From the NCBI GenBank assembly GCA_018817595.1, contig JAHITU010000024.1, positions 11,155 to 75,154 on the forward strand: 64,000 nucleotides of DNA, written 5' to 3'. This document shows, one piece after another, positions 1,925-53,446 of this stretch. How positions within the stretch are numbered: the first letter of the stretch is position 1; the number at the start of each line of letters is the position of its first letter. The position numbers were made by a program, and so were the translations under genes. This DNA comes from Patescibacteria group bacterium. Its GTDB lineage: Bacteria; Patescibacteriota; Minisyncoccia; Phycocordibacterales; UBA12079. The notes under the pieces are model-generated. The model worked only from the letters and a program-made list of their open reading frames with translations. It ran no database searches and was not told the DNA's origin.

Positions 1925-4102
1925 TTATAATGATCCATTTTGGATAGCTTTAATAAATCCTTCCCCTTGTTCTTTAAAATTAGGATCCAACTCAATGGCA
2001 ATTTTTAATTGATTAATAGCATCAAGATTTCTCCCCACTTCATAATAAGCGGCAGCTAAAGTGATATAAGACTGAGGATCATCTGGTTTAAATGCCAGCA
2101 TTTTTTCAGCTACTAAAACCATTTCATCAAAGTGCCTTGTATTTTTATAAGCATTTAAAAAGTTACTATCAGCAACAATTTCTCCTGACAATAAATCATC
2201 AACCAAAGCATCTTCCCCTGCATAAATAGCTCCCAAAGCATATAATTGTCTCGCTCTGTCATAATCTGTTTCTAACTCATAAGCTATTTTAAAAGAAGAC
2301 AAAGCCTCTCTATATTTCCCTTGATTAAGATTAGCCAAACCGATTTCAAAATAAATTGATTGCTTATTCGGTGATAATTCCAAGGCTTTTTCTAATTGAA
2401 CAGAAGCCCCATCATAAATACCAAAATTATTAAAGAATGAGGCAGCTAACATTCTATTTCGGGTATTTTCAGGATCTCTTTCTATTTCTTTTAAAACTTC
2501 ATCTCTCGATAATTCAAAAAAGTTATTAGTTATAGTTTGATCAACTCCAAAGCCTTTTACTTTGACTGCAAACATCATTAATTGTTCTCTTATTTCTTGG
2601 TTAGCAAAAGAATCATAAGACAAAGCCTTTTCAAAATGTTCTAAATTTTTAGACAAGCCCCCTTCTTGAGGACTCAAACCTTGCAACAAAGACCTATTAG
2701 CTAGAACCCCATTAACATTAAAAAAATAAAGAGAGGCAATAACCAGAAGAGCAATTACAGGAATACCGACACTATTCTTCTTTTCTTCATCTATTTTGTC
2801 CAGAATACATTCTCTTCGTGATTCCCCTAAGCCAACAGAACTATGAATAAACGCCAAGATAGCAAAGAAGAAAATGTAGCTGGTAATATTATCAAATACA
2901 AATAAATTATGTACAAAATACCCAACCAACAACCCTGTAAAAATACTTTTTTCTAAAATAGAAAAATCATTTCCGTGTTTCTTATTCCACAAATAATACA
3001 AAACGAAAACAAATAGCGATAAATAAGCAATCAACCCCAAGAAACCTCCAACAATCAACCAATCCATAAACACATTGTGAGTCCTATCAAACCACTCTTC
3101 CTGACCATACATTTTAGGAGTGTAATACTTATTAAAAACATAATTAAAGTTTTCTTGTCCCCAACCTAAAAGAGGCCTCTCTTTAGCTCCTTGCCATGCC
3201 ATATTCCAAATCATAAACCTAGATTTAGTGGTTTGTTCCTGCAAAGAAATAGAAGCAAAGCGATTCAGCACCTGAGACTCCCTAACAAAAGCAGTGTCTT
3301 TCAACGCAATAAATCCTCCAATAAATAAAACAGTTAACAGCAAAAGTCCGCCACAAAACTTTTTCAATTTAATATTTTCTTTTTCAAACAAAGCCACCAA
3401 GAAAGAAATTAACAAAGTCGCCCCAAAAAATCCTAAAATAGCTCCTCGAGTAGCTGTATGATAAAGAATAATAATATTAAGTATTATTGTCATTCCGTAA
3501 AATATTCCCATTGAATCTTTCCAGTTATAACGGCGTAACCATAAAAACAAAGCAATAAAAATATGAATCACAGAATAAATAGCCAAATAAGATGCATTTC
3601 CAAAAGTAGTATCCAGACGAGTGATCCCCTGTACCGCAGTAGCCCAACCCAATAATTGAAATATTCCATAAAGGCTAATCCACAAACTAACACCCAAAGA
3701 AATATTAAAAAACTTGTTCCATAATTTTTTAGTGTTTAACATCCCCACCAAAACAATGAAATATCCCAGTAGATGCAACAAGGTTACCCAACCTTCCATC
3801 CTTTCATAATTAGACCAAAAACTCTTTAACGGGTTTACCCCAAAAATATCAGCAAAAAACATTATCCCCACCAGTGATATCACCCCTCCTAAAATCCAAG
3901 AAAATTTTGGTCTGTATTCCTTATTAAACAAAGCCAAGATAGCCCATCCTCCGACGGCCATTTCTACCAATACTCTGAATAAAATGTTCTTTCCTACAAT
4001 ATAAGGAAAAAACATCGATGAACAAACCACCAAAGGAATAAAAGGAATAATAAAAATTAGGAATAATACAATATTTTTTAAAATTTTTTCATATTTAAAC
4101 AT
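1925..4102 (-). CDS. Polytopic membrane protein: O-antigen ligase/polymerase-like N-terminal domain fused to C-terminal TPR repeats
   Basis: About 12 hydrophobic helices over the first roughly 430 aa, followed by repeated A..Y.....LG..Y...G...EA TPR-like units. Confidence 0.5.
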   Translation of the reverse strand: MFKYEKILKNIVLFLIFIIPFIPLVVCSSMFFPYIVGKNILFRVLVEMAVGGWAILALFNKEYRPKFSWILGGVISLVGIMFFADIFGVNPLKSFWSNYERMEGWVTLLHLLGYFIVLVGMLNTKKLWNKFFNISLGVSLWISLYGIFQLLGWATAVQGITRLDTTFGNASYLAIYSVIHIFIALFLWLRRYNWKDSMGIFYGMTIILNIIILYHTATRGAILGFFGATLLISFLVALFEKENIKLKKFCGGLLLLTVLFIGGFIALKDTAFVRESQVLNRFASISLQEQTTKSRFMIWNMAWQGAKERPLLGWGQENFNYVFNKYYTPKMYGQEEWFDRTHNVFMDWLIVGGFLGLIAYLSLFVFVLYYLWNKKHGNDFSILEKSIFTGLLVGYFVHNLFVFDNITSYIFFFAILAFIHSSVGLGESRRECILDKIDEEKKNSVGIPVIALLVIASLYFFNVNGVLANRSLLQGLSPQEGGLSKNLEHFEKALSYDSFANQEIREQLMMFAVKVKGFGVDQTITNNFFELSRDEVLKEIERDPENTRNRMLAASFFNNFGIYDGASVQLEKALELSPNKQSIYFEIGLANLNQGKYREALSSFKIAYELETDYDRARQLYALGAIYAGEDALVDDLLSGEIVADSNFLNAYKNTRHFDEMVLVAEKMLAFKPDDPQSYITLAAAYYEVGRNLDAINQLKIAIELDPNFKEQGEGFIKAIQNGSL

Positions 4103-4227
4103 TGATTAAATTATATCATAGAAAATATGAAAACATTAAAACATTAGAATATAAAAACAAACAGATTTTGTTCTACAAAATCTGTTAATGAAAAGTTTTA
4201 TTTTATAAAACTTTTACAAAAAAAAAT

Positions 4228-4265
4228 AATTACACTAAAACCGCGACCGCGGTTTTAGTGTAATT
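4228..4265 (-). terminator. Intrinsic terminator: 18-bp perfect stem followed on the minus strand by a U9 tract
   Basis: aattacactaaaaccgcg-ac-cgcggttttagtgtaatt, with the A-run 4217-4227 on plus giving a U-run on the minus-strand transcript. Confidence 0.55.
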
Positions 4266-4512
4266 ATTTAATTCACAAAATTAAGAGCAGTCATCCGAAG
4301 ATGACTGCTCTTAATAGAGAAATGCTTGGCACAGATAGCCCTAGAATAACTCTAGGTGAGTGCGGTGAACGGACCACCACGGTGATTCGGAAACACTTGC
4401 TCTCTTTTATTGCATTTTAGCTAGGTTATTGCACCAAGGATTCCTCCTATGTTCATTATACACCAATTTAAAATTAACAAGCAAATCAATTGTGAATAAC
4501 TCAACCATTAAA
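4266..4512 (-). ncRNA. Candidate structured leader or small RNA between two terminators, upstream of the O-antigen-ligase/TPR gene
   Basis: Minus-strand TATAAT at 4455-4460. Locally GC-rich (about 50%) core at 4320-4440. A 13-bp hairpin capped by a UUCG tetraloop (4284-4313 on minus: aagagcagtcatc-UUCG-gatgactgctctt). Long-range pairing ccttggtgca...tgtgccaagc. Ends at the 4228-4265 terminator. No protein-coding potential. Confidence 0.3.
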
Positions 4513-4549
4513 AATAAAAAAAGTAGGGATGCTATCCCTACTTTTTTTA
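4513..4549. terminator. Bidirectional intrinsic terminator downstream of ndk
   Basis: aaaaaaagtagggat-gct-atccctacttttttt: a 9-bp stem flanked by an A-run and a T-run. Confidence 0.6.
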
Positions 4550-4560
4550 TTAATATATTC

Positions 4561-5034
4561 TTAGAAGTGATCTTCAGCATTTATCAATTTGTAATCCGGT
4601 TTTTCATAATCAAACAATTCACTTTCTTCAAAGAATCTTTTTATTTCAATTTCAGCATTTTCAGCAGAATCAGAAGCGTGAACTAAATTTGATTGCCCAC
4701 TCATAGAGTAATCCCCTCTAATGGATCCAGCATCAGCCTCATGTCCTTTAGTTGGTCCTACAATTAATCTTGTAGCAGAAATTGCATTTACTCCACCTAA
4801 GGCAATAAGCACAACAGGAGAAGCTTGCATATAATTTTTTAAGGTATTAAAAAATGGTTTTTCCACTAAATGACTGTAATGTTCTTCAATTAAAACATCT
4901 GAAATTTTTGTCATTTTAACTCCAATAATTTTCAAACCTTTTCTTTCAAATCTTTGCAGGATTTCTCCAAACAAGGATCTTTGGATAGCATCTGGTTTCA
5001 TTATAATTAATGTCTTTTCTTCTTTTGGATTCAT
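4561..5034 (-). CDS. ndk: Nucleoside diphosphate kinase
   Basis: EKTLIIMKPDAIQR..GEILQRFE..G..IIG..M...YMQASPVVLIALGGVNAI...GPT...A..GSIRGDY NDK motifs. 157 aa. Confidence 0.9.
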   Translation of the reverse strand: MNPKEEKTLIIMKPDAIQRSLFGEILQRFERKGLKIIGVKMTKISDVLIEEHYSHLVEKPFFNTLKNYMQASPVVLIALGGVNAISATRLIVGPTKGHEADAGSIRGDYSMSGQSNLVHASDSAENAEIEIKRFFEESELFDYEKPDYKLINAEDHF

Positions 5035-14405: not shown

Positions 14406-17400
14406 TTATAAACCTAGTCTTTCTAACCAACCAAATTTCTTTTCAAAGTTAGAGAAAATAATTTCTACAACATCTTGCTTTTTTTGAGGTGTTAATAAGG
14501 TGTAGTCTTTTGAGATAGATAGATTACCTTGAGAATCCTTGGACTGAACATTAAAACGATAAACAGTAGCTGGTTTTAGATTACCCAATACGGTTGTATG
14601 ACGATAAACAAGATCTTCTCTCAATTCACTACTTACTACAAATTCAGGGTTAATGGATGCTCCTTCTTGATAAAAAACTTGAGAGGTTGCCAACTCATCA
14701 GTTTGCCAAGTAATAATAGTTTGAATTTTTTTACCTTCTGAAGATACAGCTGATTCTGTTCTTAATTGTAATATCTGAGGAGGAATTACATCATCCACAT
14801 TATTAAATTCAGGAATAGTATGAGTAATTAACTCTCCGCTTTGAGTGGTTGATTTTAGACGTACAAAATATGTGGTTCCTCCCTCTAAATCTTCTATGGT
14901 AACCTCATGAGTAATACTCAGTCCTGCAACAGATTTTGTTTTTAATCTATCCTTTTGCAATTCTCCTTGATGATATGGAGTATATTCAATTTCTGTTGTT
15001 GATTCTACTGAAGTTTCCCATACAAATGTAGCTGAATGATCTTCTACATCCTTAACAGACCATTTAGTAATTTCTGGTACTTCAGCATTGGTTTTAAAAA
15101 CAAAATCTTTAGATTGAGCAATAGGTCCTACCTGTGATTTAGATTTTAATTTGTAGTGATATGTTGTACTTGGAGCTAAGTTAGAGAGAACCACAATATG
15201 AGAAGTTGTCAGCTCTTCTGCTTCTCCTCGTGTCTCTGTATATGGTTTACTTTTATTCAAATTATATTCAGCCTCTGTAGCTAACTCAATTAATGAGTTA
15301 GCTGGTTTATCAGTTCCCCAAGAAATGATAGCTGAAGACGAAGTCACCTTAACATTCGGTTCAGAACTTAAAAGTGGAGCTGGGATATATTTTGATAAAT
15401 CTTCGATAGTTTGAGTAGTTAAAACCAAGTTCTCTTCTAATTTTTGTACTGAAACCTGTCCTGCCATTTTTGAGAAAATTGAATTAACTTTTTGAGTCGC
15501 TAACTGCAATAGAGATTCTTGAGCTGTCTTAACTGTGCTACTTGTGGTTATAACAGGAGTTTCTTGAATATCTTCAATTTCTTGAGTGTCTTTCTCCACT
15601 CCTTCAAGAGAAGATAAAGTGGTGAAAGAAGCCTGGGGTGATTCAGCTTTATTACCTGAACTATCAATAGAAATAACTTTATAGAAATATTGATTTGAAG
15701 GGTAAAGTTTTGTTAAAGTTATTTTATGATTTCTACTCGTATTCAATGACATACCATTTAATAGCCCGTATTCTGGACCTGTACCATACTGAACTCCTTC
15801 ATTCGCGTCCTCGTTAGTAGCCCAAGTCACAGTAGCTGTAGTTGCACCAACATCAACTTTAACATCACTAATTACAGGAGCTTTTCTGTCAGTAACAGGA
15901 CAAGAAGCTCCTCCCCCTCCACCACCACTTGAAGCAGCGACACAAAAAGTTCCATTCCAAGAAGTATTAGAACCACAATAACTAGAACCAGCCCCTGCAC
16001 TAGCAATTCCCTCAGCTCTCGCAGCTTCTTCTCGTATGACCACAGCAGCCTCTTCAGACAAGGCTCCTAAAGTAGTAAAGAATGTTTCTGCACTAGTAGT
16101 AGCGTTCGAATTAGCATCAGTGGAAAGCACTCTGAAATAATATTTAATCTCTTCAGTTAAGCCAGATAATTTAACTGAGTGTGAAGTATCCAGAGTTGCC
16201 TTTGAAGAGGAGGCTGTATAGACTCCTGAAGTGGTTCCATAATCAACAACAGAATTTGAAGCTTCATCTGTTATCCAAGTAATGTACGCGAAAGTATCCC
16301 CAATAGTTGAAGCACTTGGATCAGTTGTAATATTAGGAGCAGTTATATCTGACGAATCTGTTGTGGTAAAGGTCCATCCCGCTCCAGCATTATCATCAGT
16401 TCTTGTATTAGAGTTGGAATCGGTACTTTTTAATCTTATGTAATAGGTGGTACCTGCTGTTAAGCCAGTTATATCAAAAGAATGGTTAGAGTTGTAGTTG
16501 TTGTTAGATTCTGTAGTTCCATAGGAATTAGATATTCCGTATTCTAGTGTTGAAGTAGCCACTTCACTGGTCGTCCAAGAAACAGTGGCTGTGGTATCTC
16601 CTATAGCAGTAATATCTGTATCACTATCAAAAGTAATTGTAGGAGCGGTCGAATCTTGAGTAGTAGTCAGACTATAATATGCAACTTCTCCATTAATAAC
16701 ATTTTTATCATTAGCTGTTCCTGAACTTACATAATAGTAATATTTAGTCCCTGCTGTTAAACCACTCACAGTCACTGAGTGTGAAGCCACTGAATCAGCT
16801 GAACCAGTTTGAGTAGCACTGGATAAATCTGAGTTAGTTGAATAATAAACATAAGAACTAGCTACAGTATCTGTAGTCCAAGTAATCACAGCTGATTCAT
16901 TATTTATAGTATCTGTAGTTACAGCAGAGATAGATGGACCTGCTAGAGTATCAAAAGTAAAACCATTATCTCCTGGAACTTTAGTAGCTGTATTATTATT
17001 AATATCCGTTGATTTAACCTGGTAATAATACGTAGTGTCTGGAGTTAAACCAGTCAAGACGATACTATGTTGTCCTAGGCCAGCAGCTGTATTTAACATA
17101 GTAGCTTTTCCAACATAAGGGGCATCTGTGAAGTCAGCTCCTGTAGCTGTAATATATTCTACTCTGGAATCGGCTAGCTCATCTGTATCCCAAGTAATAG
17201 TAGCTGACTGAGTAGTAATATTAGAAGCTGTAGTATTAGTAATAACAGGTTCAACAGCTTCTACTCCTCCCCCTCCTTCTGATCCGTCTTGAGTACCGTT
17301 AGCTGTTCCTGCAATAGCTGAAGAGTAAGCTGAAATATTTCCATCGGCATCAATTGAAAGAACTTTGTATTGATGAGTAGAATCAGCACTAAGACTTCTA

Positions 17401-20282
17401 TCCACATAATAATTCAAAGTTCTATCTGTAATAGTTGATTCTAATGAATAGTTAATTCCATCAGTGGCATGATAAACCTTGTAGGAACCAAAACCAGGAC
17501 CTGGATTATCAACAACTCCCCAAGTTAAAAACAAATCATAAGTCGCAGGAGTCACATTAACATTAGAGATATCTTGAATAACAACATTAGCAGGTGTATT
17601 GGGAGTAGTAGCATTAAGAACAGAAGATTCATTTCCATAAACATCTCTGAATTTAACATAAACAGTATCTGGATCAGTTGTGCTTTGGGTATCACTAGTT
17701 GAATATGATTCCCATGAAGCTCCTGCAAAACCAGAATCTAAAGAAATCATCATTTCTTTGTCTGAATCATCTGTAGCTGCCAAAGTCAAAGTAGCTGGAC
17801 TGGTAGAATTATCTACAATGACAGAAGTTGATGTAGGGGCAGTAGTATCTAAAATACCGGCTATGGTAGTAGAAGCCACGGTATTATTAGCCGCTTCTTT
17901 ATCGTCAAAGGTTGCTCTCATTTGAAAACCTGTTGTATACAAATCAGCCACAGTAGTTGAAGCTATCCATGTTGCTGTATAAGTTAAATATGAATCTTCT
18001 AAGACTTTGTTATCTGTGTATCCATCAGAGTTGTCATCAATCACTTCCCCACTACCTGGGGCTACACCATAAATAATTGATGAAGTAGCAATAGAATTCC
18101 AAGAAGATCCATTGTAATATTCAAAAGTAGGTGTTACATAATTAGGGATAACAGTTCCACTGGTTGTATCGGCATCTTTAATTTCATAAGAAATGTCTAC
18201 CACTCCATCTGTTCCTTGTACTGCTGTGAAAGTTCCGACTAAAGGAGCTCCATTAGCCACATAGATAGGAATAATATTATCAACCGTAGGTGAAGTTAAT
18301 CCAGGTTCAATCACTACTTTATATTGAAACCACTGATCATTAGATCCGTCTTTTAGAGCTGTAGGGATTACTGTAGTGTCACAAGCAACAGAACTTGTTA
18401 ATTTAGTACAACCGCTGGTTAAAAAGTTAGGAGTGGATGATGCTATTTCAGACCAAATAGCTGAATCTAAACCGACAGCAGAAGTGGCTGTTCTTAAATA
18501 CATTTTAACTTGTGAATTAGTTGGTAGAGTTGTATTCTCTGTCCAATTAATTCCTGCCATTACATTAGCAACTGCTTCTGTATTATATTTAGAAGAGATT
18601 AAATTTTCATTATTTTCAAAATAAGTATAATTAACTTTAATCTGATCAATTTCCGGAGTTGCGGCACTATCAGTTGTTGATAAATCCATCGCAAAATCTA
18701 AAGTAGTAGTTGTTCCAGCTGTAAACCCTCCACTAGTTGACCAATCTGCAGAATTCAATGCTTCCAATACTGTTTTAGACATTCCTTGAGATTGTAAATT
18801 AGCTAAAGAGGATAAGGCCCAGGCTGAACCAGTCCAATATTTCCAGGTTGTTCTTCCGTCGAAAGATACTAGATATTTTATATCTGTGTTAGTTGGAGTG
18901 GTTTGGGTTAAATCTACGTCTGTGATTGCAGAATAATTTGATACATCTATTTGAGTGGTATTTGTTGTAATTATGTAATATGGTGTTATTGGATAAGGAG
19001 AACTATAACTACTAATATCCATCATTTCTATTTCTGCTATAGAAATCGTAGTTCCACTTGAAACTGGAGCTGTGACATTTATTCGATAATAATTATATGC
19101 AATAGTATTCCCTATATCATATGTCTTCCATTCATGATATACCCAATCAGTAACATTACTCTGTGTATCAAGAGTAACCCAATTAGATCCATCATTTGAA
19201 CCGAGAAAAGTCCAATTCTTTGGCATTGTTTCATCTACTGAAAGATCTCCGGTCATACGATACCTTTTTATAATTTTAGTCTCTGGGAAAAGATATTGAA
19301 TCCAATGATTTAAACCTTGATTAAATGTTCTCCAATGAGTAGTTAAATTATTATCAAAAGCTTTGGTGGCATCATTACCGCCCGCAACATAATAAATACT
19401 AGCTGTCGCTGTTCCTCCATTACATAAATCATTTGAATAATTAATTACTGTTCCTTGTAATTTCCCAACCCCACCAACAATATCTGTTTTAGATGAATCC
19501 TCTTGTGTGTAATCTCCCTCTGTTGTGAAATCTATAGTGCTTGAAGCTGTTTGTGCTATTACTGTAATATCAGTTCCAGCATTAACACCAGAAGATTTAG
19601 AATAATATTTATCCCAATCTGATTGGTTAGATGTATGATTAGCTGTAGTTACAGTATCGACTCCTCCCACCCATGAAGCTTGAGTAAAATTATAGGTAGC
19701 AGCTTTAACAACAGAAAGTGGATATATTAAAGAAGAAACTAAAACAAAAATTATTCCAATAATTCCAATAGAAGTTTTTATAGTTGTTTTTATTCTGTTC
19801 TGTTTATGAAAATTAATCAATTGTTGTTCAAGAGAAATAGCTTGTTTTTTATCTACTTCTTCCCCTCTTTTGATTTGATTAATAATTTTATCTAAATCTA
19901 AATATTCAGTAGGACAGTGTTGTTTAAACTCATTTAAAATTTCATTCTCAACTAGAACTAAAGAATCTTTAGAAGATCTAAATAACAAAGCAAGAGAATA
20001 AATCAGTCTACGATAAGAATCAATTTCATCTTTGTTTTGAATTCTTTTGTATTCTTTTTTTAATAATTCTCCAACGATAGGAACAGAGCTATCTGTAATC
20101 TGAGAAATTATAATTAAAGATAAAATAAAAGCCAAAAGAATAATAAAAAAGATTATTCCTCCTACTAAATTCCATAGATAAAACAAAGTAAATACAGTTA
20201 GTAAAAACGTAATTACAGACAACAAAAAAGATACGTAAAAAGCCATCTGTTTTCTTAATTTAAACAAATATTTATTCATCAT
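14406..20282 (-). CDS. Giant (1958 aa) membrane-anchored surface protein with an F5/8-type-C (discoidin)-like domain and at least 8 fibronectin-III-like repeats
   Basis: N-terminal hydrophobic helices. A discoidin-like segment (NLTTHWRTFNQGLNHWIQYLF...NWTFLGSNDGSNWVTL). Repeated units of about 90 aa of the form TATITWDTDELADSRVEY...LTGLTPDTTYYYQVKSTD. Thr/Ser/Gly-rich. Confidence 0.7.
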   Translation of the reverse strand: MMNKYLFKLRKQMAFYVSFLLSVITFLLTVFTLFYLWNLVGGIIFFIILLAFILSLIIISQITDSSVPIVGELLKKEYKRIQNKDEIDSYRRLIYSLALLFRSSKDSLVLVENEILNEFKQHCPTEYLDLDKIINQIKRGEEVDKKQAISLEQQLINFHKQNRIKTTIKTSIGIIGIIFVLVSSLIYPLSVVKAATYNFTQASWVGGVDTVTTANHTSNQSDWDKYYSKSSGVNAGTDITVIAQTASSTIDFTTEGDYTQEDSSKTDIVGGVGKLQGTVINYSNDLCNGGTATASIYYVAGGNDATKAFDNNLTTHWRTFNQGLNHWIQYLFPETKIIKRYRMTGDLSVDETMPKNWTFLGSNDGSNWVTLDTQSNVTDWVYHEWKTYDIGNTIAYNYYRINVTAPVSSGTTISIAEIEMMDISSYSSPYPITPYYIITTNTTQIDVSNYSAITDVDLTQTTPTNTDIKYLVSFDGRTTWKYWTGSAWALSSLANLQSQGMSKTVLEALNSADWSTSGGFTAGTTTTLDFAMDLSTTDSAATPEIDQIKVNYTYFENNENLISSKYNTEAVANVMAGINWTENTTLPTNSQVKMYLRTATSAVGLDSAIWSEIASSTPNFLTSGCTKLTSSVACDTTVIPTALKDGSNDQWFQYKVVIEPGLTSPTVDNIIPIYVANGAPLVGTFTAVQGTDGVVDISYEIKDADTTSGTVIPNYVTPTFEYYNGSSWNSIATSSIIYGVAPGSGEVIDDNSDGYTDNKVLEDSYLTYTATWIASTTVADLYTTGFQMRATFDDKEAANNTVASTTIAGILDTTAPTSTSVIVDNSTSPATLTLAATDDSDKEMMISLDSGFAGASWESYSTSDTQSTTDPDTVYVKFRDVYGNESSVLNATTPNTPANVVIQDISNVNVTPATYDLFLTWGVVDNPGPGFGSYKVYHATDGINYSLESTITDRTLNYYVDRSLSADSTHQYKVLSIDADGNISAYSSAIAGTANGTQDGSEGGGGVEAVEPVITNTTASNITTQSATITWDTDELADSRVEYITATGADFTDAPYVGKATMLNTAAGLGQHSIVLTGLTPDTTYYYQVKSTDINNNTATKVPGDNGFTFDTLAGPSISAVTTDTINNESAVITWTTDTVASSYVYYSTNSDLSSATQTGSADSVASHSVTVSGLTAGTKYYYYVSSGTANDKNVINGEVAYYSLTTTQDSTAPTITFDSDTDITAIGDTTATVSWTTSEVATSTLEYGISNSYGTTESNNNYNSNHSFDITGLTAGTTYYIRLKSTDSNSNTRTDDNAGAGWTFTTTDSSDITAPNITTDPSASTIGDTFAYITWITDEASNSVVDYGTTSGVYTASSSKATLDTSHSVKLSGLTEEIKYYFRVLSTDANSNATTSAETFFTTLGALSEEAAVVIREEAARAEGIASAGAGSSYCGSNTSWNGTFCVAASSGGGGGGASCPVTDRKAPVISDVKVDVGATTATVTWATNEDANEGVQYGTGPEYGLLNGMSLNTSRNHKITLTKLYPSNQYFYKVISIDSSGNKAESPQASFTTLSSLEGVEKDTQEIEDIQETPVITTSSTVKTAQESLLQLATQKVNSIFSKMAGQVSVQKLEENLVLTTQTIEDLSKYIPAPLLSSEPNVKVTSSSAIISWGTDKPANSLIELATEAEYNLNKSKPYTETRGEAEELTTSHIVVLSNLAPSTTYHYKLKSKSQVGPIAQSKDFVFKTNAEVPEITKWSVKDVEDHSATFVWETSVESTTEIEYTPYHQGELQKDRLKTKSVAGLSITHEVTIEDLEGGTTYFVRLKSTTQSGELITHTIPEFNNVDDVIPPQILQLRTESAVSSEGKKIQTIITWQTDELATSQVFYQEGASINPEFVVSSELREDLVYRHTTVLGNLKPATVYRFNVQSKDSQGNLSISKDYTLLTPQKKQDVVEIIFSNFEKKFGWLERLGL

Positions 20283-24840: not shown

Positions 24841-27800
24841 TTAAATCTCTTGGAAACTTGGAACCAACATAAATTCCAAAGAAACTGATTCTGAAGGAGC
24901 CCCTACTTCTGTTCCGTTCTGACAAGTTAAAGTAAATTCTGATTTGTGTTCAATAGCAGGAGTAGTAAATGAACCAGAAATTATTCCACTTTCAGATTGG
25001 GCTTGAGTGTAATTGTACGTAGCAATAAATCCATCCGGTCCTTCTAGTGTACAAGAAGTAGCATTGCCAATTCCACTCCAAATGATTTCTCTAGTTTTTC
25101 CTTTGACTACCCAATAAATATTATCATCAGTTCTAAATCCTAAATTAGTTGGAGTTCCTGTAATAGTTTTTGATGCAGGAATAATAGGAGTGGGGCAAGC
25201 AGATACAGGAGGAACCACAGCATTACACAAACCGTCACAACCAATAATTCCAGTACCTGTCATATAACAAGAGTTTGTTCCCGCAGTACAAACTGTACCG
25301 TACCCAACAGGATTAGCAGGAACTGAGGCTGAACAAGTTCCGTCACACTGGATAGTTCCTGAAGCTGTTGTGCCACAAGCATTAGCAGCTGAAGTACAAG
25401 CATCACCTAGATCATCAGGATTATCAGGAGCTGAAACAGAACAATCACCCGTACATTCAATTTGTCCATAATTTACATCCCCACAAGAATTAGCATCTGA
25501 TTCACAAGGGTCTCCTAAACCAGCAGGTACAGTAGGGACAACGGCTGAACAGGTTCCATTACAAGCAATCGTTCCGCTCCCTTTATCTCCGCATAGATTT
25601 GGAGAAGATTGGCAATAACTTCCATAACTGGCTACACAACAAGATACTGTATTACAGCTCTGATATTGAATATTTGAACCTGCACAATACGCTCCCCCTC
25701 CTGATGGGTATGGATTTGAACAAGTTCTTGTTGAATATTGAGTTCCTCCTCCACAAACAACTGTACAAGGAGACCAAGCAGACCAAGCAGACCAACCTCC
25801 GTTTACAGCAGGGCTAACCACTGTAAAATAAACAGGAGCATTAGCATAGGGTGTACCTGAAAAATCAGAGATCCTGAAATTATAGTGAACTCCTTCATAT
25901 TGCCCATACTGCACCCAATGACTATAGGGGGTAAATCCATAATTTGGCAATAAGGAATTACACACTTCAGGGCCTGTCCAATTATTCCTTTCCATGTACC
26001 AACCACTATTAAGTTGCTCAGCTTTATTACTACAATAAAGATCATTATTAAATTCTTGTGGATAACCATAATAAGTTTTAAACCATCGCTCATCGTCCCA
26101 ATGAAACCAAGTGTAATAAGACCCTGGGGAACTAGGAGCACTTGCACTAAAAGTATAATAAGAACTACCCCTTCCTATATAAAAAGAACCTGCAGGATAG
26201 GGTATAATAGCATAATACTGACTACTAGTAACAGAATTCCAACAAACAATAGAACTTTCATACATTGTAGCTGTAATTGTTTCATAAGGGTTATAAGTAC
26301 TTTTGTTTAAGCTAATATTCCAAGTAAATGAATGATCCCAAAACCGATCTGCTCCACCAGCCCTAACAGCATAATTAATTCTATAGGAAGCAGCGTCGGC
26401 TACATTATAAGAACTCCCAAAAAAAGCAAAAGCTTGCAAAAAAACAAAAAAAACAATAACAAAAGTCGGAAATTTAAACCCTTTGTTTTTAAAATAAACT
26501 AAACTCACCAAAATTAAAAACCCTACACCTAATAACAGGTATACTAATAAAGAATTTCCTCTGTCTAGATCAAAATCAAATTTTGTATAGGAAAGAACTT
26601 CTCCTGAGTCATTATCAATTACTTGGATATTTACTTTTGGAAAGAGACAGTCTTTGTTAATTTGAAAATCTATAATCTGATTCAGGGAAAATTGATCAAT
26701 TTCAACCTTTAAAATATCTCCACAACTGTTATTATTTTTATCTACAACTTCGATTTTAGCTATTACATTTTCTACAAAAGAAGGTCCTAGTCTCGAACCA
26801 TAAAAAGAGTCAGCTGAACCACTGTAAAATAAGTTTATCTTGGCTATCTCTCCAGATTCATAAATTGTTTTATCGAGTGAAAGATTAGGAATAGTACTTC
26901 CTTTTCCTCTCAAAACATAATGAGCTGAAACAAAATCAACAGGAATATTTAAACTGTTATTAAAAGTTAATTTAACATCATAGGCTTGAGATTTTTCTGG
27001 TTTAGGTATTTCCAAAGAAAAAGTTTTCTTCTCTAAAGCTTTTATTTCAATGTTATCTTGTGAGAGTTGAGGAGTTTCAACTTTTTCTCCAAAAGTTGAT
27101 CTATAAAAAGTTTCGAAAGCAGGAATCAAAGACAAATCTTTATCAGAGTGGTTTTCTATCTCACAATTTAATTTCAATATTTCTTCTGGATTAACATCCA
27201 CGCCTTGGTCTAAAGTATAATGAGGGTCCAATTCTTCTCCTTCGATATTAAAAAAACAACTTGGTTTTATGATTTCCACAAATGAATTATCTCCTTCAAG
27301 CGTAACTTCACCTAAACTACCTAACCCTAAAATTAAACCTTCTTTATTTTTACTGACTATATATAATTGATATATTCCATTCAAATAATCAGGAGCATCA
27401 TATTTAATTTTTTTAATTATTTCTTCATTTTCTCCTAAATTGATTATTTCAGAATAAATCTTTTCATCAATAATTGATTGTGTTTGTAAACCATCATTCT
27501 CATTTATTAAAATTAAGTGCACCCCATACTGAATATCTGATTGAATCATTTCCCCGTTAGAAAGAACAAAAGATAAATCAAATTTATTATTTATTTGTTT
27601 TATTATTTTAGAATCATATATATTAAGACTTGATATCATTACTATTTCAGGAGTAATATCTTCTCCTAGTTCTTTTGTTGAATCCTCAATATATTTTTTT
27701 ATTAGATCTTGTTCATCTATAGAATCATTCTCTCCAAGCATCATTGAATTCATAAGATTAATTTCTTCTTGAGTTAATTCTTTTGGTGCACCAAAGCCTT

Positions 27801-27879
27801 CTTGTGCTGAAACATTTAGAGTACAATACCCTAAAATTAAAACAGTACAAAACAAAAAATATGTTAATATTTTTTTCAT
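24841..27879 (-). CDS. Secreted/membrane protein (1012 aa) with a thrombospondin type-1 repeat and four tandem Cys-rich modules of about 40 aa
   Basis: Signal peptide MKKILTYFLFCTVLILGYCTLNVSA. Two mid-protein hydrophobic helices. GGWSAWSAWSPCTVVCGGGTQYSTRTCSNP matches the W-x-x-W-x-x-W / CSVTCG TSR consensus. It is followed by repeats of the form CxSxANxCGxxxxGxIxCxGxCSAxxPxxP. Confidence 0.7.
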   Translation of the reverse strand: MKKILTYFLFCTVLILGYCTLNVSAQEGFGAPKELTQEEINLMNSMMLGENDSIDEQDLIKKYIEDSTKELGEDITPEIVMISSLNIYDSKIIKQINNKFDLSFVLSNGEMIQSDIQYGVHLILINENDGLQTQSIIDEKIYSEIINLGENEEIIKKIKYDAPDYLNGIYQLYIVSKNKEGLILGLGSLGEVTLEGDNSFVEIIKPSCFFNIEGEELDPHYTLDQGVDVNPEEILKLNCEIENHSDKDLSLIPAFETFYRSTFGEKVETPQLSQDNIEIKALEKKTFSLEIPKPEKSQAYDVKLTFNNSLNIPVDFVSAHYVLRGKGSTIPNLSLDKTIYESGEIAKINLFYSGSADSFYGSRLGPSFVENVIAKIEVVDKNNNSCGDILKVEIDQFSLNQIIDFQINKDCLFPKVNIQVIDNDSGEVLSYTKFDFDLDRGNSLLVYLLLGVGFLILVSLVYFKNKGFKFPTFVIVFFVFLQAFAFFGSSYNVADAASYRINYAVRAGGADRFWDHSFTWNISLNKSTYNPYETITATMYESSIVCWNSVTSSQYYAIIPYPAGSFYIGRGSSYYTFSASAPSSPGSYYTWFHWDDERWFKTYYGYPQEFNNDLYCSNKAEQLNSGWYMERNNWTGPEVCNSLLPNYGFTPYSHWVQYGQYEGVHYNFRISDFSGTPYANAPVYFTVVSPAVNGGWSAWSAWSPCTVVCGGGTQYSTRTCSNPYPSGGGAYCAGSNIQYQSCNTVSCCVASYGSYCQSSPNLCGDKGSGTIACNGTCSAVVPTVPAGLGDPCESDANSCGDVNYGQIECTGDCSVSAPDNPDDLGDACTSAANACGTTASGTIQCDGTCSASVPANPVGYGTVCTAGTNSCYMTGTGIIGCDGLCNAVVPPVSACPTPIIPASKTITGTPTNLGFRTDDNIYWVVKGKTREIIWSGIGNATSCTLEGPDGFIATYNYTQAQSESGIISGSFTTPAIEHKSEFTLTCQNGTEVGAPSESVSLEFMLVPSFQEI

Positions 27880-30819: not shown

Positions 30820-30902
30820 TTTTTTAACTCCTTAATTTTAAATTTATAGAAACTTACTAGAATCAAAGTATATCTAAAAAAACAAAAAAGGTCAACGAAA
30901 AT

Positions 30903-30982
30903 AAAAAGACTTGGGGGTGAAACCCCCAAGTCTTTTTATTTTATAAATATGAAAGAGCGAGGCTTTAGCCTCGCTCTTTCAT
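30903..30982. terminator. Two consecutive strong hairpins (bidirectional terminators) downstream of rplL
   Basis: aaaaagacttggggg-tgaaa-cccccaagtcttttt, then atgaaagagcgaggc-ttta-gcctcgctctttcat. Confidence 0.55.
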
Positions 30983-43162: not shown

Positions 43163-46100
43163 CTATTTTGAAATAGTTTGAGCTGAGCTTCCGCCTGATG
43201 GCAATCCGTCTACTAGGTATCCGTTTGACCAATCTACATGAGCTAGAGCAGAAGTAGTTGTAGCGTGACCTGACCAAACAAAGTCATTGTTTGTATCAGC
43301 ATCTACAGTTGTTTCTGTTCCCATCAAAGTTGCCATTGCTGGGTAAGCTGCATCTCCTGAAATCTTAGTTGTAACATTTCCTGAGAATGTACCTGTTCCA
43401 GCTGTTAATGTAGTGTCTCCTTCTACTTTAAAGTAGTAAGTAGCACCTGCTGGGATATTCAAAACTGAACTAAATTCAACTTCGTTATCACCAGTTACTA
43501 GAGTAGCTGCTGCAGTTGCAAGTAATCCGTTTGTGTATCCAGATACTGGATTTGAGAAACTTGAATCTGTGTAAGCATATACTTCTAGGTTAGTTACAGT
43601 TGTTGTTCCTGATACAGCTGAAGCTGATGAAGTAGCAACATTTACAGTAACTTGGTTAAGTCCGATTCCATCACTTAATCCATCAGCATCTTTAGCTGTA
43701 ATGCTGAATTTGTACAATTCAACATCTGTTGATGAGATTAACACTGTGTTAGAAACATTAATCTTAGCAAATTCTGGATAAGCTCTGAATACTCTCACTC
43801 CATCAACAGCAGTATCTGATGCTGATGTTGTGTTGATAGTTGTTCCTGATTGTGCTCCTACTCCTTGAGTAGATGCAGTATAACCACCGTCAAAGTTTAC
43901 TTTCAATAATGCTCCTTGTGTTCCAACTTGAGATGTTCCGATCTTTGCAAGATCTCCTTTAATTGTCATAACTTTTGATCCATCTTTTGGAATCATAAAG
44001 TCAGTTGTCAAAGTAGATGTTGCGTAATCTGTACTTGTGAATGTAGCAACACCAACTTGTGTTGTTCCATCCCACAAAGTAACTCTAGTTAAGTCTGAAG
44101 GTGAACTTGAAGCAGCAGTCAATTGTAGACCTAATTTCTTCAAGTTAATAGCTTCATTTGTTCCTGTGAATTTCAATTTAGCAAGAACTACATCTGTTGT
44201 TCCAGCAGCAACAATCTTGTATGAAGGACTTGAGTCGTCTTTAACTACTGTGAATGTACCACCTGTTGTAGCTGTCATTATTTGTCCTGATCCTGTAGGA
44301 GTAGCTGTTGTGATAGTAGATCCTGAATCAAGACCTGATCCTGTTTGAGCAGCTGTCATACTCCATAGGTAAGTGTCTCCACTTGCTGAAGCTGAAATGT
44401 TACATTTTAGAGCAATTGTTTTTAGTGTTCCTTTAGGAATTACTAGTCCAGCACTGTCTAATGTAAATGTTTGAGCTGCAGTTTCACCTGAAGCAATGTC
44501 TTTGATGTTTGAACCTGTGTTCAAAGCTGTTGTTCCATCAAATAATTGACATCCTGTTTGATATTCTGAATTTGCTCCTGTAACTGTGTTATTTAATACC
44601 AATGTATTAAATTTAACATCTTCTCCTGATGCTGTTGCATCGAATTGGAAATTAGCCATTACAAATCCTTGTGCACCAGCTACCACGTTTTGTGCTACTG
44701 GGCTTGCGGATGTGCTGATTACAGCTGTTCCAGTTTTCAATGTCATTGTGTTTGAAGTCAATGTTGCATCAGGTGTAGGTGTAATTGAGTTACCTGTTGT
44801 TTGACCTGTTACTGTTGTCCAATCATCAGTAGGATTTGTGTCAATAATAATTGTTTGATCATTAACAAAATTTGTTCCTAATTGACCTTTCAATGTGTAA
44901 GTTCCTTTTCCTAATTGGAAAGTAACTGTATCTGTGAAAGTAATTGTTCCTGTTGTTTGTGCTGATACTGAAGTATAAGCTGCATCAACTGGACCAGCTA
45001 CTACTGAACCATTAGCATCAACCAAAGAAACATTAGTGATGTCGTCTACTTGACCTACAGCTGAACTAGCTGCAGCTGACGAACCAGTAAGTGTTACGTT
45101 GAATACCATTGAAGCCACTGAGATTGCTTCTCCTTTAGCTTCAATATCGAATCCACCTAATACTTGGTTGGCAACATTTTCAGCAATATTTTGTGCTTCT
45201 ACTGTTGTTGATTTTGATCCTTGTAATGAACCATTTGAAACAGTTACTACTGAAGCATCATACCAAGGTGTTCCTGTACTGAATCCTGTTCCTGTTGAAG
45301 CAGGAGTAATTCCATATCCGTAAGTTTCACCTGTTACATAAAGATCTGTATTTTTATACAAATCAAATGCAATTGTTCTACCTGATCCTGAAATGATATC
45401 TCCTTTAATAGTGATTTCTTTTGCAAGACCTTTATCTACAACAAGTCCTGTTCCAAATGTAGATGTATAGTATTTACCATCGGATGATACCATTACATCG
45501 TAAGCAACTCCGTCAACATAAGTCTTAAGGTTTCCTAAGTCTGATGCTGAAACTGAACCTGATTGATTCCATCTAATTGAATGAAGTCTAATCTTTTCAG
45601 CTGATCCAGCTGTTACTTTTATAGATGAGAATGTGTATCCGTCTACTCCAACTTCTTTTGTAGCTGTTGCATTAGGATCGTTCACTCCTCGAGCTGGTGT
45701 AGCTGATCCAATTGATAGGGAATCATTCATTGTGTGAGCTGTTCCCATGATTGGAAGAGCACCATTAACAGCAGCTGAAGTATTTACTCCAATCACTGAA
45801 AGTGATCCAACTTGTCCTCTGTATGAAGCCATTGTTGCTGCTGCAACCATGTTTCCAGCAATAGTTACTGTTTTTGAAGTTCCAGCTTTCACTGTGAAGT
45901 TTTCTCCAACTGTAGCTTGGTGTAGTGAGTTCAAAGTTTTAGCAATTCCGATTTGTGTTCCATCTTCATCCAGTAAGATGATTCCTGCGAACGCTGCATC
46001 TGCTGCTAAACCAGTTCTCTCTATTAATAGAGAGTTAACTACTACATCTCCATCAGCACTAGCTGTAAGAATAACTTTTGTGAAAGGAATTCTTGCTGCA

Positions 46101-52721: not shown

Positions 52722-53285
52722 ATGATATTATCCTACAATGAAGTAATTCCTAAAAAATTTATTAATTTAGATGGAATCCCTTACGAGGTGCTTTCTTCAC
52801 ATGTTTTTAGAAAACAGCAAAGGAAACCAGTAAACCAAACTAAATTAAGAAATCTTTTGAATGGTAAGCAAATTGAAAAAACTTTCCACCAGCCAGATAA
52901 AATCGAATCAGCAGAAATTGAATTTAGAAAAATAAAATTCTTATACCAAAACAAAGAGGAATTCTGGTTTTGTGAAGAAAATAACCCAAAAGAAAGATTT
53001 AAAATTGACGGTAACGCTATTTCGATAAAGTTTTTGAAAGAAAATTCATTAGTTGACGCTATGTTTTTTGATGATAAAGCTATAGGAATTAAATTACCTA
53101 CTAAATTAGACCTTAAGGTTGTAGAAGCTCCCCCAGCTAATAAGGGAAATACCGTATCTGGAGCTAACAAACCAGTAAAAGTAGAAACAGGTGATTTTGT
53201 TACTGTTCCAATATTTATCAAAGAAGGTGATATTATCAGAGTTAATACGGAAAAAGGAGAATATGTAGAGAGGGTTACAAACTAA
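52722..53285 (+). CDS. efp: Elongation factor P
   Basis: 187 aa with a three-domain EF-P pattern (KLRNLLNGKQIEKTF; KGNTVSGANKPVKVETG; IKVDT/RVNTEKGEYVERV). Confidence 0.8.
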   Translation: MILSYNEVIPKKFINLDGIPYEVLSSHVFRKQQRKPVNQTKLRNLLNGKQIEKTFHQPDKIESAEIEFRKIKFLYQNKEEFWFCEENNPKERFKIDGNAISIKFLKENSLVDAMFFDDKAIGIKLPTKLDLKVVEAPPANKGNTVSGANKPVKVETGDFVTVPIFIKEGDIIRVNTEKGEYVERVTN

Positions 53286-53339
53286 AAAATAGACAAAGAA
53301 AAAATGAGCTTTAGCTCATTTTTTCTTTGTCTATTTTTT
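53285..53339. terminator. Long perfect-stem bidirectional terminator after efp
   Basis: aaaaatagacaaagaaaaaatgagc-ttt-gctcattttttctttgtctattttt (stem of about 25 bp). Confidence 0.6.
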
Positions 53340-53446
53340 AGAATTATAAATTAAAAATTGTAAATTTTATATTGAATTTTTATTTTTAAAAAACTTTAAG
53401 CGGAAAGGGGGGTTCCCTTTCCGCCTTGAATCTATGTTTATGATTC

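What the first reader, a model, noticed from the sequence alone, without database searches (positions are those of the whole stretch)
4228..4512. Structured leader or sRNA with a UUCG-capped hairpin, sandwiched between two terminators upstream of the O-antigen-ligase/TPR gene
On the minus strand, a TATAAT element (complement of 4455-4460) is followed by AGGAGGA and then a minimal start-stop ORF (ttg-gtg-caa-taa). A 110-nt core is closed by long-range pairing, ccttggtgca with tgtgccaagc. A 13-bp helix carries a UUCG tetraloop (complement of 4284-4313). An 18-bp perfect terminator stem plus U9 (4228-4265) ends it about 125 nt before the start codon of the membrane-protein gene at 4102. This architecture suggests either an independent sRNA or a terminator-controlled riboswitch-like leader. 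It does not obviously match a known riboswitch class.
Basis: seen in the sequence. Interest (0 to 1): 0.55.

Follow-up and report, generated by a model that had tools for sequence, protein, structure and literature searches.

The report
Unannotated divergent 6S RNA gene
The hairpin-rich stretch is a free-standing small-RNA gene, most likely a shrunken 6S RNA (a decoy that holds RNA polymerase), in an ultra-small Patescibacteria genome; it is not a riboswitch or leader of the neighbouring membrane-protein gene.

Summary

It is a conserved RNA gene with its own TATAAT box and its own terminator, which is the UUCG hairpin. I found 18 distinct homologues, all in Patescibacteria and always just downstream of ndk. 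Their structure covaries strongly: 92% of cells are paired, 24 of 42 pairs show compensatory changes, and 0 of 500 shuffles reach this.

It is not a leader of the Wzy_C/TPR gene. In distant homologues the downstream gene is different. The Wzy_C gene also has its own -10 box 7 nt before its ATG.

The architecture matches 6S RNA:
- a long closing stem;
- a 16-nt variable 5' bubble strand;
- a G-C-flanked upstream stem;
- an invariant ACCU opening a 13-nt 3' bubble strand;
- a CCUAG/CCUAG/CUAGG triplet that reproduces the release-hairpin logic of E. coli 6S RNA.

The two most distant family members hit Rfam 6S (RF00013) over its full length and in register (22 bits, E = 0.006), below the curated cut-off of 46.4. 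The window copy itself gives no 6S hit.

Verdict: a divergent, compact 6S RNA that standard annotation misses (confidence about 0.7). It is a new member of a known kind, of moderate interest.

The parts
4455..4460 (-). -10 promoter box TATAAT of the RNA gene. A weak -35-like TTGCTT lies at 4479-4484, with an 18-nt spacer.
   Evidence: Read. TATAAT is present 6-9 nt upstream of the closing stem in all 16 main-clade homologues. The transcription start at about 4448-4450 is inferred, not mapped.
4424..4447 (-). 5' strand of the closing (downstream) stem P1, GGAGGAAUCCUUGGUGCAAUAACC.
   Evidence: Pairs with 4316-4340. 24 pairs, 15 of them with compensatory changes, 89% of cells paired.
4421..4425 (-). 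5' copy of CCUAG. It can extend the closing stem by pairing with CUAGG at 4340-4344. It is the predicted start of the template region for a product RNA.
   Evidence: This pairing is possible in 96% of cells across 16 sequences, but the bases do not vary, so there is no covariation. The Rfam 6S model aligns this segment as the inner downstream helix.
4405..4420 (-). 5' strand of the central bubble, CUAAAAUGCAAUAAAA (16 nt): A/U-rich and variable in sequence between species.
   Evidence: Alignments A1 and A2. It aligns to the 16-nt single-stranded region of the Rfam 6S consensus.
4399..4404 (-). P2 5' strand GAGAGC, the upstream duplex that flanks the bubble.
   Evidence: Pairs with GCACUC at 4358-4363 and has a conserved A.A mismatch. 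In L043 and L045 it becomes GGGAGU/(G)ACACCC: two pairs change on both sides and the A.A is kept. It equals the Rfam 6S consensus GGGag...caCCC.
4370..4389 (-). P3 apical hairpin: CGAAUCAC, loop CGUG (4378-4381), GUGGUCCG.
   Evidence: 8 pairs, 6 with compensatory changes, 93% of cells paired. The CGUG loop is invariant in all 18 homologues.
4358..4363 (-). P2 3' strand GCACUC.
4345..4357 (-). 3' strand of the central bubble, ACCUAGAGUUAUU (13 nt). ACCU (4354-4357) is invariant. CCUAGA (4351-4356) is the left arm of hairpin P4, the candidate release hairpin.
   Evidence: ACCU is invariant in all homologues. [quoted passage not shown] The Rfam consensus reads 'caCCC ACCUggaAcagCa'.
4340..4345 (-). 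UCUAGG, the right arm of P4. The same bases are the only partner available to the 5' CCUAG copy, so the two pairings exclude each other.
   Evidence: The P4 form is 1-6 kcal/mol more stable than the extended-stem form in all 16 sequences. P4 is paired in 99% of cells.
4316..4340 (-). 3' strand of closing stem P1.
4277..4314 (-). Intrinsic terminator of the RNA gene: a 15-bp perfect stem, a UUCG loop and a UUUU tail.
   Evidence: Every homologue has a hairpin plus a U-run directly after P1. The stem sequences differ between species, and several have UUCG loops.
4217..4268 (-). Second, stronger tandem terminator: a 20-21-bp stem plus a T9 run. It is specific to the window.
   Evidence: It is absent at this position in the homologues.
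4513..4551 (.). Bidirectional terminator hairpin that ends the ndk operon upstream of the RNA gene.
   Evidence: Most homologous loci lack it, and there the RNA promoter follows the ndk stop codon directly.
4103..4115 (-). Not part of the RNA: the downstream Wzy_C/TPR gene's own -10 box TATAAT (4110-4115), 7 nt before its ATG (4102), with no Shine-Dalgarno.
   Evidence: The same layout occurs in L002, L005, L008, L009, L014 and L016, and before the DUF2238 gene in L045.

Best explanation
The region 4277-4460 (minus strand) is a free-standing gene for a divergent, compact 6S RNA (SsrS-type) of a Patescibacteria/Paceibacteria lineage. The transcript starts a few bases after the TATAAT box and ends at the UUCG-capped terminator, with a second terminator as backup.

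The RNA has a core of about 132 nt and folds as follows:
- a roughly 25-bp closing stem;
- an open region with a 16-nt variable 5' strand and a 13-nt 3' strand that begins with the invariant ACCU;
- a short upstream arm (P2 with a conserved A.A mismatch, an internal loop, and P3 capped by CGUG).

By analogy with E. coli and B. subtilis 6S RNA, I infer the mechanism below. None of these steps is shown here.
1. The RNA mimics an open promoter and occupies the primary-sigma RNA polymerase holoenzyme.
2. When NTPs rise, the polymerase copies the 5' bubble strand into the closing stem. The predicted product begins near 5'-AGCUAGGUUAUUG.
3. That copying strips the 5' CCUAG from CUAGG.
4. CUAGG then pairs with the second CCUAG to lock the P4 hairpin, and the RNA is released.

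The shown parts are the gene structure, the conservation, the covarying fold, the lack of linkage to the downstream gene, and the sub-threshold, in-register similarity of family members to the Rfam 6S model.
For: Gene structure and conservation:
- Real and conserved: 18 distinct homologues from 9 GTDB species plus metagenomes, all Patescibacteria.
- Covariation: 92.2% of cells paired against about 40% when partners are slid; 24 of 42 pairs have changes on both sides; 0 of 500 shuffles reach this. Many G-U pairs fix the strand as minus.
- Own -10 box and own terminator in every locus.
- The family model R1, built without them, finds L045 (59.7 bits, E = 1.6e-12) and L043 (E = 1.2e-10) downstream of ndk.

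Similarity to 6S RNA:
- Those two RNAs hit Rfam RF00013 6S/SsrS over the full model 1-187, at 22.3 and 22.4 bits, E = 0.006 each. It is the top hit for L045.
- The Rfam alignment is in the same register as my independently derived structure. The closing stem equals P1. The 16-nt bubble strand equals the variable linker. Consensus GGGag/caCCC equals P2. ACCUggaAcagCa equals the 13-nt 3' strand. The inner downstream helix equals 5' CCUAG with CUAGG.
- ACCU directly after the upstream duplex is invariant here. It is also nt 131-134 of E. coli ssrS (sequence verified), which PMC3988568 calls highly conserved.
- Three mutually constrained segments (CCUAG, CCUAG, CUAGG) reproduce the release-hairpin arrangement described for gamma-proteobacterial 6S. 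A small 3'-bubble hairpin already present in the free RNA matches B. subtilis 6S-1 (PMC8876501).
Against: - The window RNA itself gives no 6S hit, even at E <= 10 on 141-175 nt. L020 does not either.
- The best 6S scores are about half the curated cut-off (22 against 46.4 bits).
- The link is transitive, and L043 and L045 are related to each other, so the two hits are not independent. I tested five family RNAs, which weakens E = 0.006.
- The reverse test fails. Family models R1 and R2 do not find E. coli ssrS.
- The upstream arm is short (about 14 bp plus a loop, against 25-30 bp in typical 6S), so the usual '-35' region is missing.
- The invariant CGUG loop, the conserved internal loop and the strict synteny with ndk are not explained by the 6S model.
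- The thermodynamic ground state is a three-way junction with P4 closed, not an open bubble.
- The competing 5' CCUAG:CUAGG pairing has no covariation.
- No expression, RNA polymerase binding or product-RNA data exist.
Confidence: 0.7

Rival explanations
1. A lineage-specific structured sRNA unrelated to 6S. On this reading the three-way junction, with its invariant CGUG loop, A.A-containing P2 and CCUAG/CUAGG elements, is a binding platform for some other protein or RNA. The resemblance to 6S is then convergence or chance.
For: - The window copy has no Rfam hit.
- The 6S hits of relatives are far below the gathering score.
- R1 and R2 do not find E. coli ssrS.
- Loop and junction bases are conserved at sequence level while the stems covary, as expected for a specific binding site.
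- The free-RNA ground state is a closed three-way junction.
- The fixed position after ndk is unusual for 6S.
Against: - Two family members hit 6S over the full model, in the register of the independently derived helices.
- The bubble strands are 16 and 13 nt, as in the Rfam consensus.
- The invariant ACCU sits at exactly the 6S position (PMC3988568).
- No alternative partner is suggested by the gene neighbourhood, which changes downstream of the RNA.
Confidence: 0.2
2. A riboswitch or attenuator leader. The structured core senses a ligand and controls read-through of the UUCG terminator into the Wzy_C/TPR gene.
For: - It lies upstream of, and on the same strand as, the Wzy_C/TPR gene in 16 loci.
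- It contains two mutually exclusive pairings.
- A terminator follows the structured core.
Against: - The downstream gene is DUF2238/beta-CASP in L043 and L045, and two other ORFs intervene in L012. Only the upstream neighbour, ndk, is constant.
- The closing stem of about 25 bp is far too stable to be a ligand-gated P1.
- By eye I saw no complementarity between the 3' strand of P1 and the terminator that is conserved across loci.
- The window has two to three terminators in tandem.
- The Wzy_C gene has its own -10 box 7 nt before the ATG and no Shine-Dalgarno, so a read-through transcript would carry an unfavourable start.
- It matches no riboswitch family.
Confidence: 0.04
3. A small coding or dual-function transcript. 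The AGGAGGA followed by a start-stop mini-ORF (or another short ORF) would be translated, for example as a ribosome-sensing leader peptide.
For: In the window, AGGAGGA lies 5 nt before TTG-GTG-CAA-TAA. Similar TTG-NNN-CAA-TAA strings occur in L008 and L009.
Against: - The segment is the 5' strand of a covarying helix.
- In L002, L005 and L025 a 122-203-nt insertion separates the 'SD/TTG' from the rest.
- Other members read GAGGAUUGUCUGGUAAAAUAA and the like, without the ORF.
- No other ORF is conserved across the alignment.
Confidence: 0.02

Closest known systems
E. coli 6S RNA (ssrS; Rfam RF00013)
   Same: - A long closing stem formed by the 5' and 3' ends.
- A large central bubble (16-nt and 13-nt strands) flanked by G-C pairs.
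- An upstream duplex ending ...CA(C/U)UC, followed directly by the conserved ACCU.
- The 3'-bubble sequence and the 3' strand of the downstream helix can form a hairpin once the 5' strand is taken away (release hairpin).
- A free-standing gene with its own promoter.
(PMC3988568.)
   Different: - The core is about 132 nt instead of 184 nt.
- The upstream arm is roughly half as long and has no '-35' region.
- The release hairpin is 5-6 bp instead of 9 bp, and it is already the more stable state in the free RNA.
- The RNA ends in an intrinsic terminator hairpin rather than being processed.
- It scores below the Rfam threshold, or not at all for the window copy.
Bacillus subtilis 6S-1 RNA
   Same: A short hairpin (5-7 bp) already forms in the 3' strand of the central bubble of the free RNA and is stabilised after product-RNA synthesis. 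Truncated versions with only short arms around the bubble still run the full cycle in vitro (PMC8876501). This makes a compact 6S plausible.
   Different: 6S-1 is 190 nt and uses a 'central bubble collapse helix'. No equivalent was identified here. No sequence similarity was tested.
Ms1 RNA of actinobacteria
   Same: A 6S-like rod-shaped RNA that binds RNA polymerase and that 6S covariance models miss; it was found through synteny (PMC9130861).
   Different: Ms1 is about 300 nt, binds the core enzyme rather than the holoenzyme, and lacks the ACCU/upstream-duplex signature. No similarity was seen here.
Riboswitch or T-box type leaders
   Same: A structured core followed by an intrinsic terminator, and two mutually exclusive helices.
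   Different: It has no fixed downstream gene, a very long P1, its own promoter and terminator as a closed unit, and no Rfam match.

Membership tests
6S RNA (SsrS, Rfam RF00013) | Scores at or above the curated Rfam gathering threshold (46.4 bits). | tested here: not met
   The window has no hit at gathering and none at E <= 10 on 175 or 141 nt. L020 has none. L045 scores 22.3 bits and L043 22.4 bits.
6S RNA (SsrS, Rfam RF00013) | Statistically supported similarity of family members to the 6S covariance model, full length and in structural register. | tested here: met
   L045 and L043 match model positions 1-187 at E = 0.006 each. P1, the bubble strands, P2 and ACCU align to the corresponding 6S elements. 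Both are tied to the window RNA by family model R1 at E = 1e-10 to 1e-12. Caveat: the link is transitive, the scores are sub-threshold, and five RNAs were tested.
6S RNA (SsrS, Rfam RF00013) | A rod-like fold: closing stem, large central bubble, internal (upstream) stem, supported by covariation. | tested here: met
   P1, P2 and P3 covary. With the 5' CCUAG paired to CUAGG, the bubble strands are 16 and 13 nt. Caveat: the free-RNA minimum-energy state closes part of the 3' strand into hairpin P4, as reported for B. subtilis 6S-1.
6S RNA (SsrS, Rfam RF00013) | Conserved upstream-duplex end (G-C pairs) followed by ACCU at the start of the 3' bubble strand (the '-10' region). | tested here: met
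   GCACUC|ACCU in the window and CACCC|ACCU in L043 and L045, invariant in all homologues. E. coli has CACAUUC|ACCU at nt 124-134. The Rfam consensus reads caCCC ACCU. PMC3988568 reports the conservation.
6S RNA (SsrS, Rfam RF00013) | Capacity for a rearrangement driven by product RNA (a release hairpin formed by the 3' bubble and the 3' strand of the downstream helix). | tested here: inconclusive
   Both pairings are possible in 96-99% of cells and the three segments are invariant. The energies differ by 1-6 kcal/mol. There is no covariation and no experiment.
6S RNA (SsrS, Rfam RF00013) | Binds the primary-sigma RNA polymerase holoenzyme and serves as a template for short product RNAs. | not testable with these tools
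   This needs biochemistry or small-RNA sequencing.
6S RNA (SsrS, Rfam RF00013) | Reciprocal detection: a model of this family finds a bona fide 6S gene. | tested here: not met
   R1 and R2, with filters off, do not find ssrS in the E. coli locus L047.
Riboswitch / cis-regulatory leader | A constant position in the 5' UTR of one gene family, or of functionally related genes. | tested here: not met
   The downstream gene is Wzy_C/TPR in most loci, an unknown 519-aa ORF in L012, and DUF2238 plus beta-CASP in L043 and L045. Only ndk upstream is constant.
Riboswitch / cis-regulatory leader | A match to a known aptamer class. | tested here: not met
   No riboswitch family appears at E <= 10 other than a 9-bit Glutamine-II fragment.
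T-box leader | Stem I with a specifier loop, a T-box sequence in an antiterminator, and a downstream aminoacyl-tRNA synthetase or amino-acid gene. | tested here: not met
   I considered this because of the GAGAG and GUGGU strings. There is no RF00230 hit, the helices found do not fit, and the gene context is wrong.

The most novel reading that the evidence does not exclude
The RNA is not a classical 6S but a distinct, Patescibacteria-specific class. One possibility is a miniaturised polymerase-binding RNA that works as a closed three-way junction. Another is an RNA with a different partner that reads the invariant CGUG loop and the A.A-containing helix. In either case some lineages would carry an optional 120-200-nt accessory domain, and the RNA would be functionally tied to ndk and NTP supply.
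Probability: 0.2. Interest if true: 0.65.

Novelty: new member of a known kind. Interest (0 to 1): 0.4.

Why it matters
6S RNA is described as nearly universal in bacteria (PMC8414754), but covariance models often fail to find conserved non-coding RNAs in small, A/T-rich genomes (PMC4779614). My full-text searches found no paper that links 6S RNA to the Candidate Phyla Radiation or Saccharibacteria. The single paper holding both '6S RNA' and 'Patescibacteria' mentions each once and concerns mitochondrial SRP.

If this is a 6S RNA, three things follow:
- Ultra-small, probably symbiotic Patescibacteria keep global control of RNA polymerase by an RNA decoy.
- It would be a naturally minimal 6S, with a core of about 132 nt and a short upstream arm. 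Truncation experiments on B. subtilis 6S-1 already showed that short arms suffice in vitro.
- The alignment and model made here could seed annotation of this RNA in this phylum.

For genome annotation it also removes a false lead: there is no riboswitch in front of the O-antigen-ligase-like gene.

Tried and rejected
Identities considered from the sequence and rejected:
- SRP RNA: no GNRA loop and no AGCA symmetric-loop motif.
- RNase P RNA: the GAGGA..GUC resemblance to CR-I is just the P1 strand and is not conserved.
- 5S rRNA: same three-way topology, but P1 is far too long and there is no Rfam hit.
- tmRNA or tRNA: ARAGORN finds none.
- T-box, Y RNA and self-cleaving ribozymes: a CUGAUGA string occurs only in L014.

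Structural ideas rejected:
- The local hairpin GUGGUGG/UCACCGC that the single-sequence fold of the window predicts. It is not kept in the relatives and is replaced by the covarying P3 with a CGUG loop.
- My first idea of an H-type pseudoknot (GUGGUG with CACUCAC). It became unnecessary once P3 was resolved.
- A P2a helix UAGCU/AGCUA. It holds only in one subgroup.

Searches that gave nothing:
- Family models R1 and R2 do not find E. coli ssrS.
- The extra domain of L005 has no Rfam match and no second copy in the held loci.
- The MITE-like repeat is not enriched in the window.
- The literature searches found nothing on structured RNAs of this kind in the Candidate Phyla Radiation.

Limits: the exact-pattern scans of the genome and metagenome collections required invariant motifs.

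Full report
**1. The observation**

I read 3900-4900 on the minus strand. It shows, in order:
- the end of an Ndk gene (ORF 4561-5034; Pfam NDK, E = 1e-48);
- a bidirectional terminator hairpin at 4513-4551;
- TATAAT at 4460-4455;
- AGGAGGA at 4448-4442;
- the string TTG-GTG-CAA-TAA at 4437-4426;
- a GC-richer core;
- a perfect 15-bp hairpin with a UUCG loop (4314-4281) followed by UUUU;
- a perfect 20-21-bp hairpin followed by nine T (4268-4217);
- a third small hairpin (4186-4160);
- the ATG of a 725-aa Wzy_C plus TPR protein at 4102.

The region 4220-4455(-) folds to -95.7 kcal/mol, against -50.8 +/- 4.3 for shuffles (z = -10.4).

**2. Organism and context**

The window carries L15-SecY-Adk-Map-TlyA-Ndk on the minus strand. 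The best Ndk relatives are named Patescibacteria or 'Pacebacteria'. The whole 64-kb window has no tRNA and no Rfam family at gathering thresholds.

**3. It is conserved**

Neighbourhoods of Ndk homologues at 77-95% identity all show the same intergenic element between ndk and a Wzy_C/TPR gene.
- An exact-pattern scan of one genome per GTDB species found it in 9 species. All are Patescibacteria/Paceibacteria-type MAGs, some of them labelled Saccharibacteria.
- A differently anchored pattern found 11 true and 3 false hits in metagenomes.
- Sixteen distinct core sequences were aligned (A1).

**4. Structure**

RNAalifold, a covariance model built with my annotation (R1) and its structure-fitted alignment (A2) agree on four helices:
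- P1, a closing stem of about 24 bp formed by the two ends.
- P2, GAGAGC/GCACUC, with a conserved A.A mismatch.
- P3, an 8-bp hairpin capped by an invariant CGUG loop.
- P4, CCUAGA/UCUAGG.

Pair counting gave the following:
- 92.2% of cells are paired, against 37-47% when the partners are slid.
- 24 of 42 pairs have changes on both sides.
- No shuffle out of 500 reaches any of the measures.

By helix, 15 of 24 pairs in P1 and 6 of 8 in P3 are compensatory. P2 gains two compensatory pairs from the distant members. The many G-U pairs fix the transcribed strand as minus.

The hairpin GUGGUGG/UCACCGC that the single-sequence fold predicted is not conserved.

**5. It is its own gene**
- In all 16 main-clade sequences a TATAAT lies 6-9 nt before P1.
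- A hairpin plus U-run follows P1 within 2-4 nt. The stem sequences differ between species, and several carry UUCG loops. The UUCG hairpin is therefore the terminator of this RNA.
- The second, stronger terminator is specific to the window.

**6. It is not a leader of the Wzy_C/TPR gene**
- R1, built without them, finds homologues downstream of more distant Ndk genes (66-69% identity): L045 (59.7 bits, E = 1.6e-12) and L043/L044 (E = 1.2e-10). There the next genes are DUF2238 and a beta-CASP nuclease.
- In L012 two other ORFs lie between the RNA and the Wzy_C gene.
- The Wzy_C gene has its own TATAAT at 4110-4115, 7 nt before the ATG, and no Shine-Dalgarno. The same layout is seen in the homologous loci.
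- A P1 of about 25 bp is also unlike a ligand-gated helix.

**7. What it is**

Rfam gives nothing for the window RNA even at E <= 10. The anatomy suggested 6S RNA for these reasons:
- The ends are paired in a long irregular stem.
- There is an A/U-rich single strand that is variable in sequence.
- There is a G-C-flanked inner stem.
- There is a conserved opposite strand.
- There are two copies of CCUAG, one at the inner end of the 5' strand of P1 and one on the opposite strand. They compete for a single CUAGG that continues into the 3' strand of P1.

I verified the E. coli ssrS sequence (100% identity, annotated as 6S RNA) and numbered it. The upstream duplex ends CACAUUC (nt 124-130). It is followed by ACCU (131-134) and by UGAACCA. 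With GGUUCAAGG of the downstream helix, these form the 9-bp release hairpin.

Two papers describe the relevant features. [quoted passage not shown] PMC8876501 describes the same rearrangement. It also notes that in B. subtilis 6S-1 a 5-7-bp hairpin already exists in the 3' bubble strand of the free RNA, and that truncated 6S-1 with only short arms still completes the cycle in vitro.

In the present family the sequence after P2 is GCACUC|ACCU|AGA...UCUAGG, and ACCU is invariant in all 18 homologues.

The decisive computed result concerns the two most distant family members. They hit Rfam RF00013 (6S/SsrS) over the full model 1-187, at 22.3 and 22.4 bits and E = 0.006 each. The alignment puts the following elements together:
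- the Rfam closing stem on P1;
- the 16-nt single strand on the variable linker;
- the consensus GGGag...caCCC on P2 (GGGAGUC/GGACACCC in L045);
- 'ACCUggaAcagCa' on ACCUAGAUUUUUG;
- the inner downstream helix on the 5' CUAG copy paired with CUAGG.

With that pairing the window RNA has bubble strands of 16 nt (4420-4405) and 13 nt (4357-4345), the same as the Rfam consensus.

**8. Cautions**
- The 6S scores are half the curated cut-off.
- The window copy and L020 give no 6S hit.
- L043 and L045 are related to each other, and five RNAs were tried.
- R1 and R2 do not find E. coli ssrS.
- The upstream arm is short. The invariant CGUG loop and the strict linkage to ndk are not explained.
- Constrained folding shows that the P4 form is 1-6 kcal/mol more stable than the extended-stem form in every member.
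- The alternative pairing is possible in 96% of cells but has no covariation, because the three segments never vary. That invariance is what three mutually dependent segments would show, but it is not proof.

I therefore put 0.7 on a divergent 6S RNA, 0.2 on an unrelated lineage-specific structured sRNA, and a few percent on a leader or a coding reading.

**9. Inferred mechanism (not shown)**
1. The RNA mimics an open promoter and occupies the holoenzyme.
2. Product-RNA synthesis starts on a U two to three bases into the 5' bubble strand. By analogy with U44 of E. coli, this is near 4419.
3. Synthesis runs into P1, giving about 5'-AGCUAGGUUAUUG.
4. This frees CUAGG.
5. CUAGG locks P4 with the second CCUAG, and the complex dissociates.

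**10. Variants**

The window's closest relatives (Ndk 92-95% identical) carry a homologous, strongly structured domain of 122-203 nt inserted in the 5' strand of P1. These are L002, L005 and, by the similarity of its RNA, L025. The insertion turns P1 into a three-way junction.
- It has no Rfam match and no second copy in the held sequence.
- The window has a C.C mismatch at that position.
- The site is about 13-18 bp from the bubble. On the 6S model this would lie at or beyond the edge of the polymerase.

**11. Novelty**

Full-text searches found no paper that links 6S RNA with the Candidate Phyla Radiation or Saccharibacteria. The one paper holding both '6S RNA' and 'Patescibacteria' mentions each once and concerns mitochondrial SRP. 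The RNA falls below Rfam thresholds, so standard annotation misses it. It is best filed as a new, compact member of a known kind.

Noticed in passing
window 4103-4115 (minus strand); also L002, L005, L008, L009, L014, L016 and L045 just before the gene that follows the RNA: The downstream genes (Wzy_C/TPR; DUF2238 in L045) have a -10-like box only 6-8 nt before the start codon and no Shine-Dalgarno. This suggests leaderless mRNAs in this lineage.
   Followed up: partly
L002 3550-3671; L005 3550-3752; L025 4238-4417: A homologous, highly structured extra domain of 122-203 nt is inserted in the 5' strand of the RNA's closing stem in the window's closest relatives and is absent from the window. 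The whole 341-nt L005 RNA folds with z = -12. The domain has no Rfam hit and no other copy in the held loci.
   Followed up: partly
L012 3496-3633; L030 182-278; L033 993-1128; L005 4091-4247; also seen by eye in L014 and L034: MITE-like elements of 97-157 nt with terminal inverted repeats CCTGTTAAAT...ATTTAACAGGG sit between ndk and the RNA's -10 box, or downstream of the RNA. Their ends seem to supply a new -35-like TTTACA. They are not enriched in the window.
   Followed up: partly
Just after the ndk stop codon in L002, L005, L008, L012, L014, L016, L020, L022, L026 and L027: A conserved box (C/T)TG(T/C)CAAT lies about 24 nt upstream of the RNA's -10 box, which is too far for a normal -35. 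Its role is unknown. The window has CAATTGATTTGC at the equivalent place.
   Followed up: no
window 1-64000: The whole 64 kb has no tRNA gene and no Rfam family at gathering thresholds, although the region is dense with ribosomal-protein and housekeeping genes.
   Followed up: no
window 4160-4268: Beyond the RNA's own terminator, the window has a second very strong terminator (20-21 bp, T9) and a third hairpin with a T-run. These make three tandem stops before the Wzy_C promoter, and the relatives do not share them.
   Followed up: partly
window 53277-53342 (+) and 30896-30940 (+): Weak matches to the family model R1 (24 and 21 bits). They are short, so they are probably plain long hairpins matching only the closing stem.
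   Followed up: no
L043 2574-2680: The 3' half of the RNA plus its terminator matches Rfam sraL (RF01408) at 27 bits, E = 1.5e-4, below the gathering score of 39. I judge it spurious (an enterobacterial Hfq sRNA, with the match driven by the terminator).
   Followed up: no
window 14406-20282, 35152-39150, 43163-46726, 24841-27879 (minus strand): Several very large ORFs (1958, 1332, 1187 and 1012 aa) lie in the window. I did not examine them.
   Followed up: no
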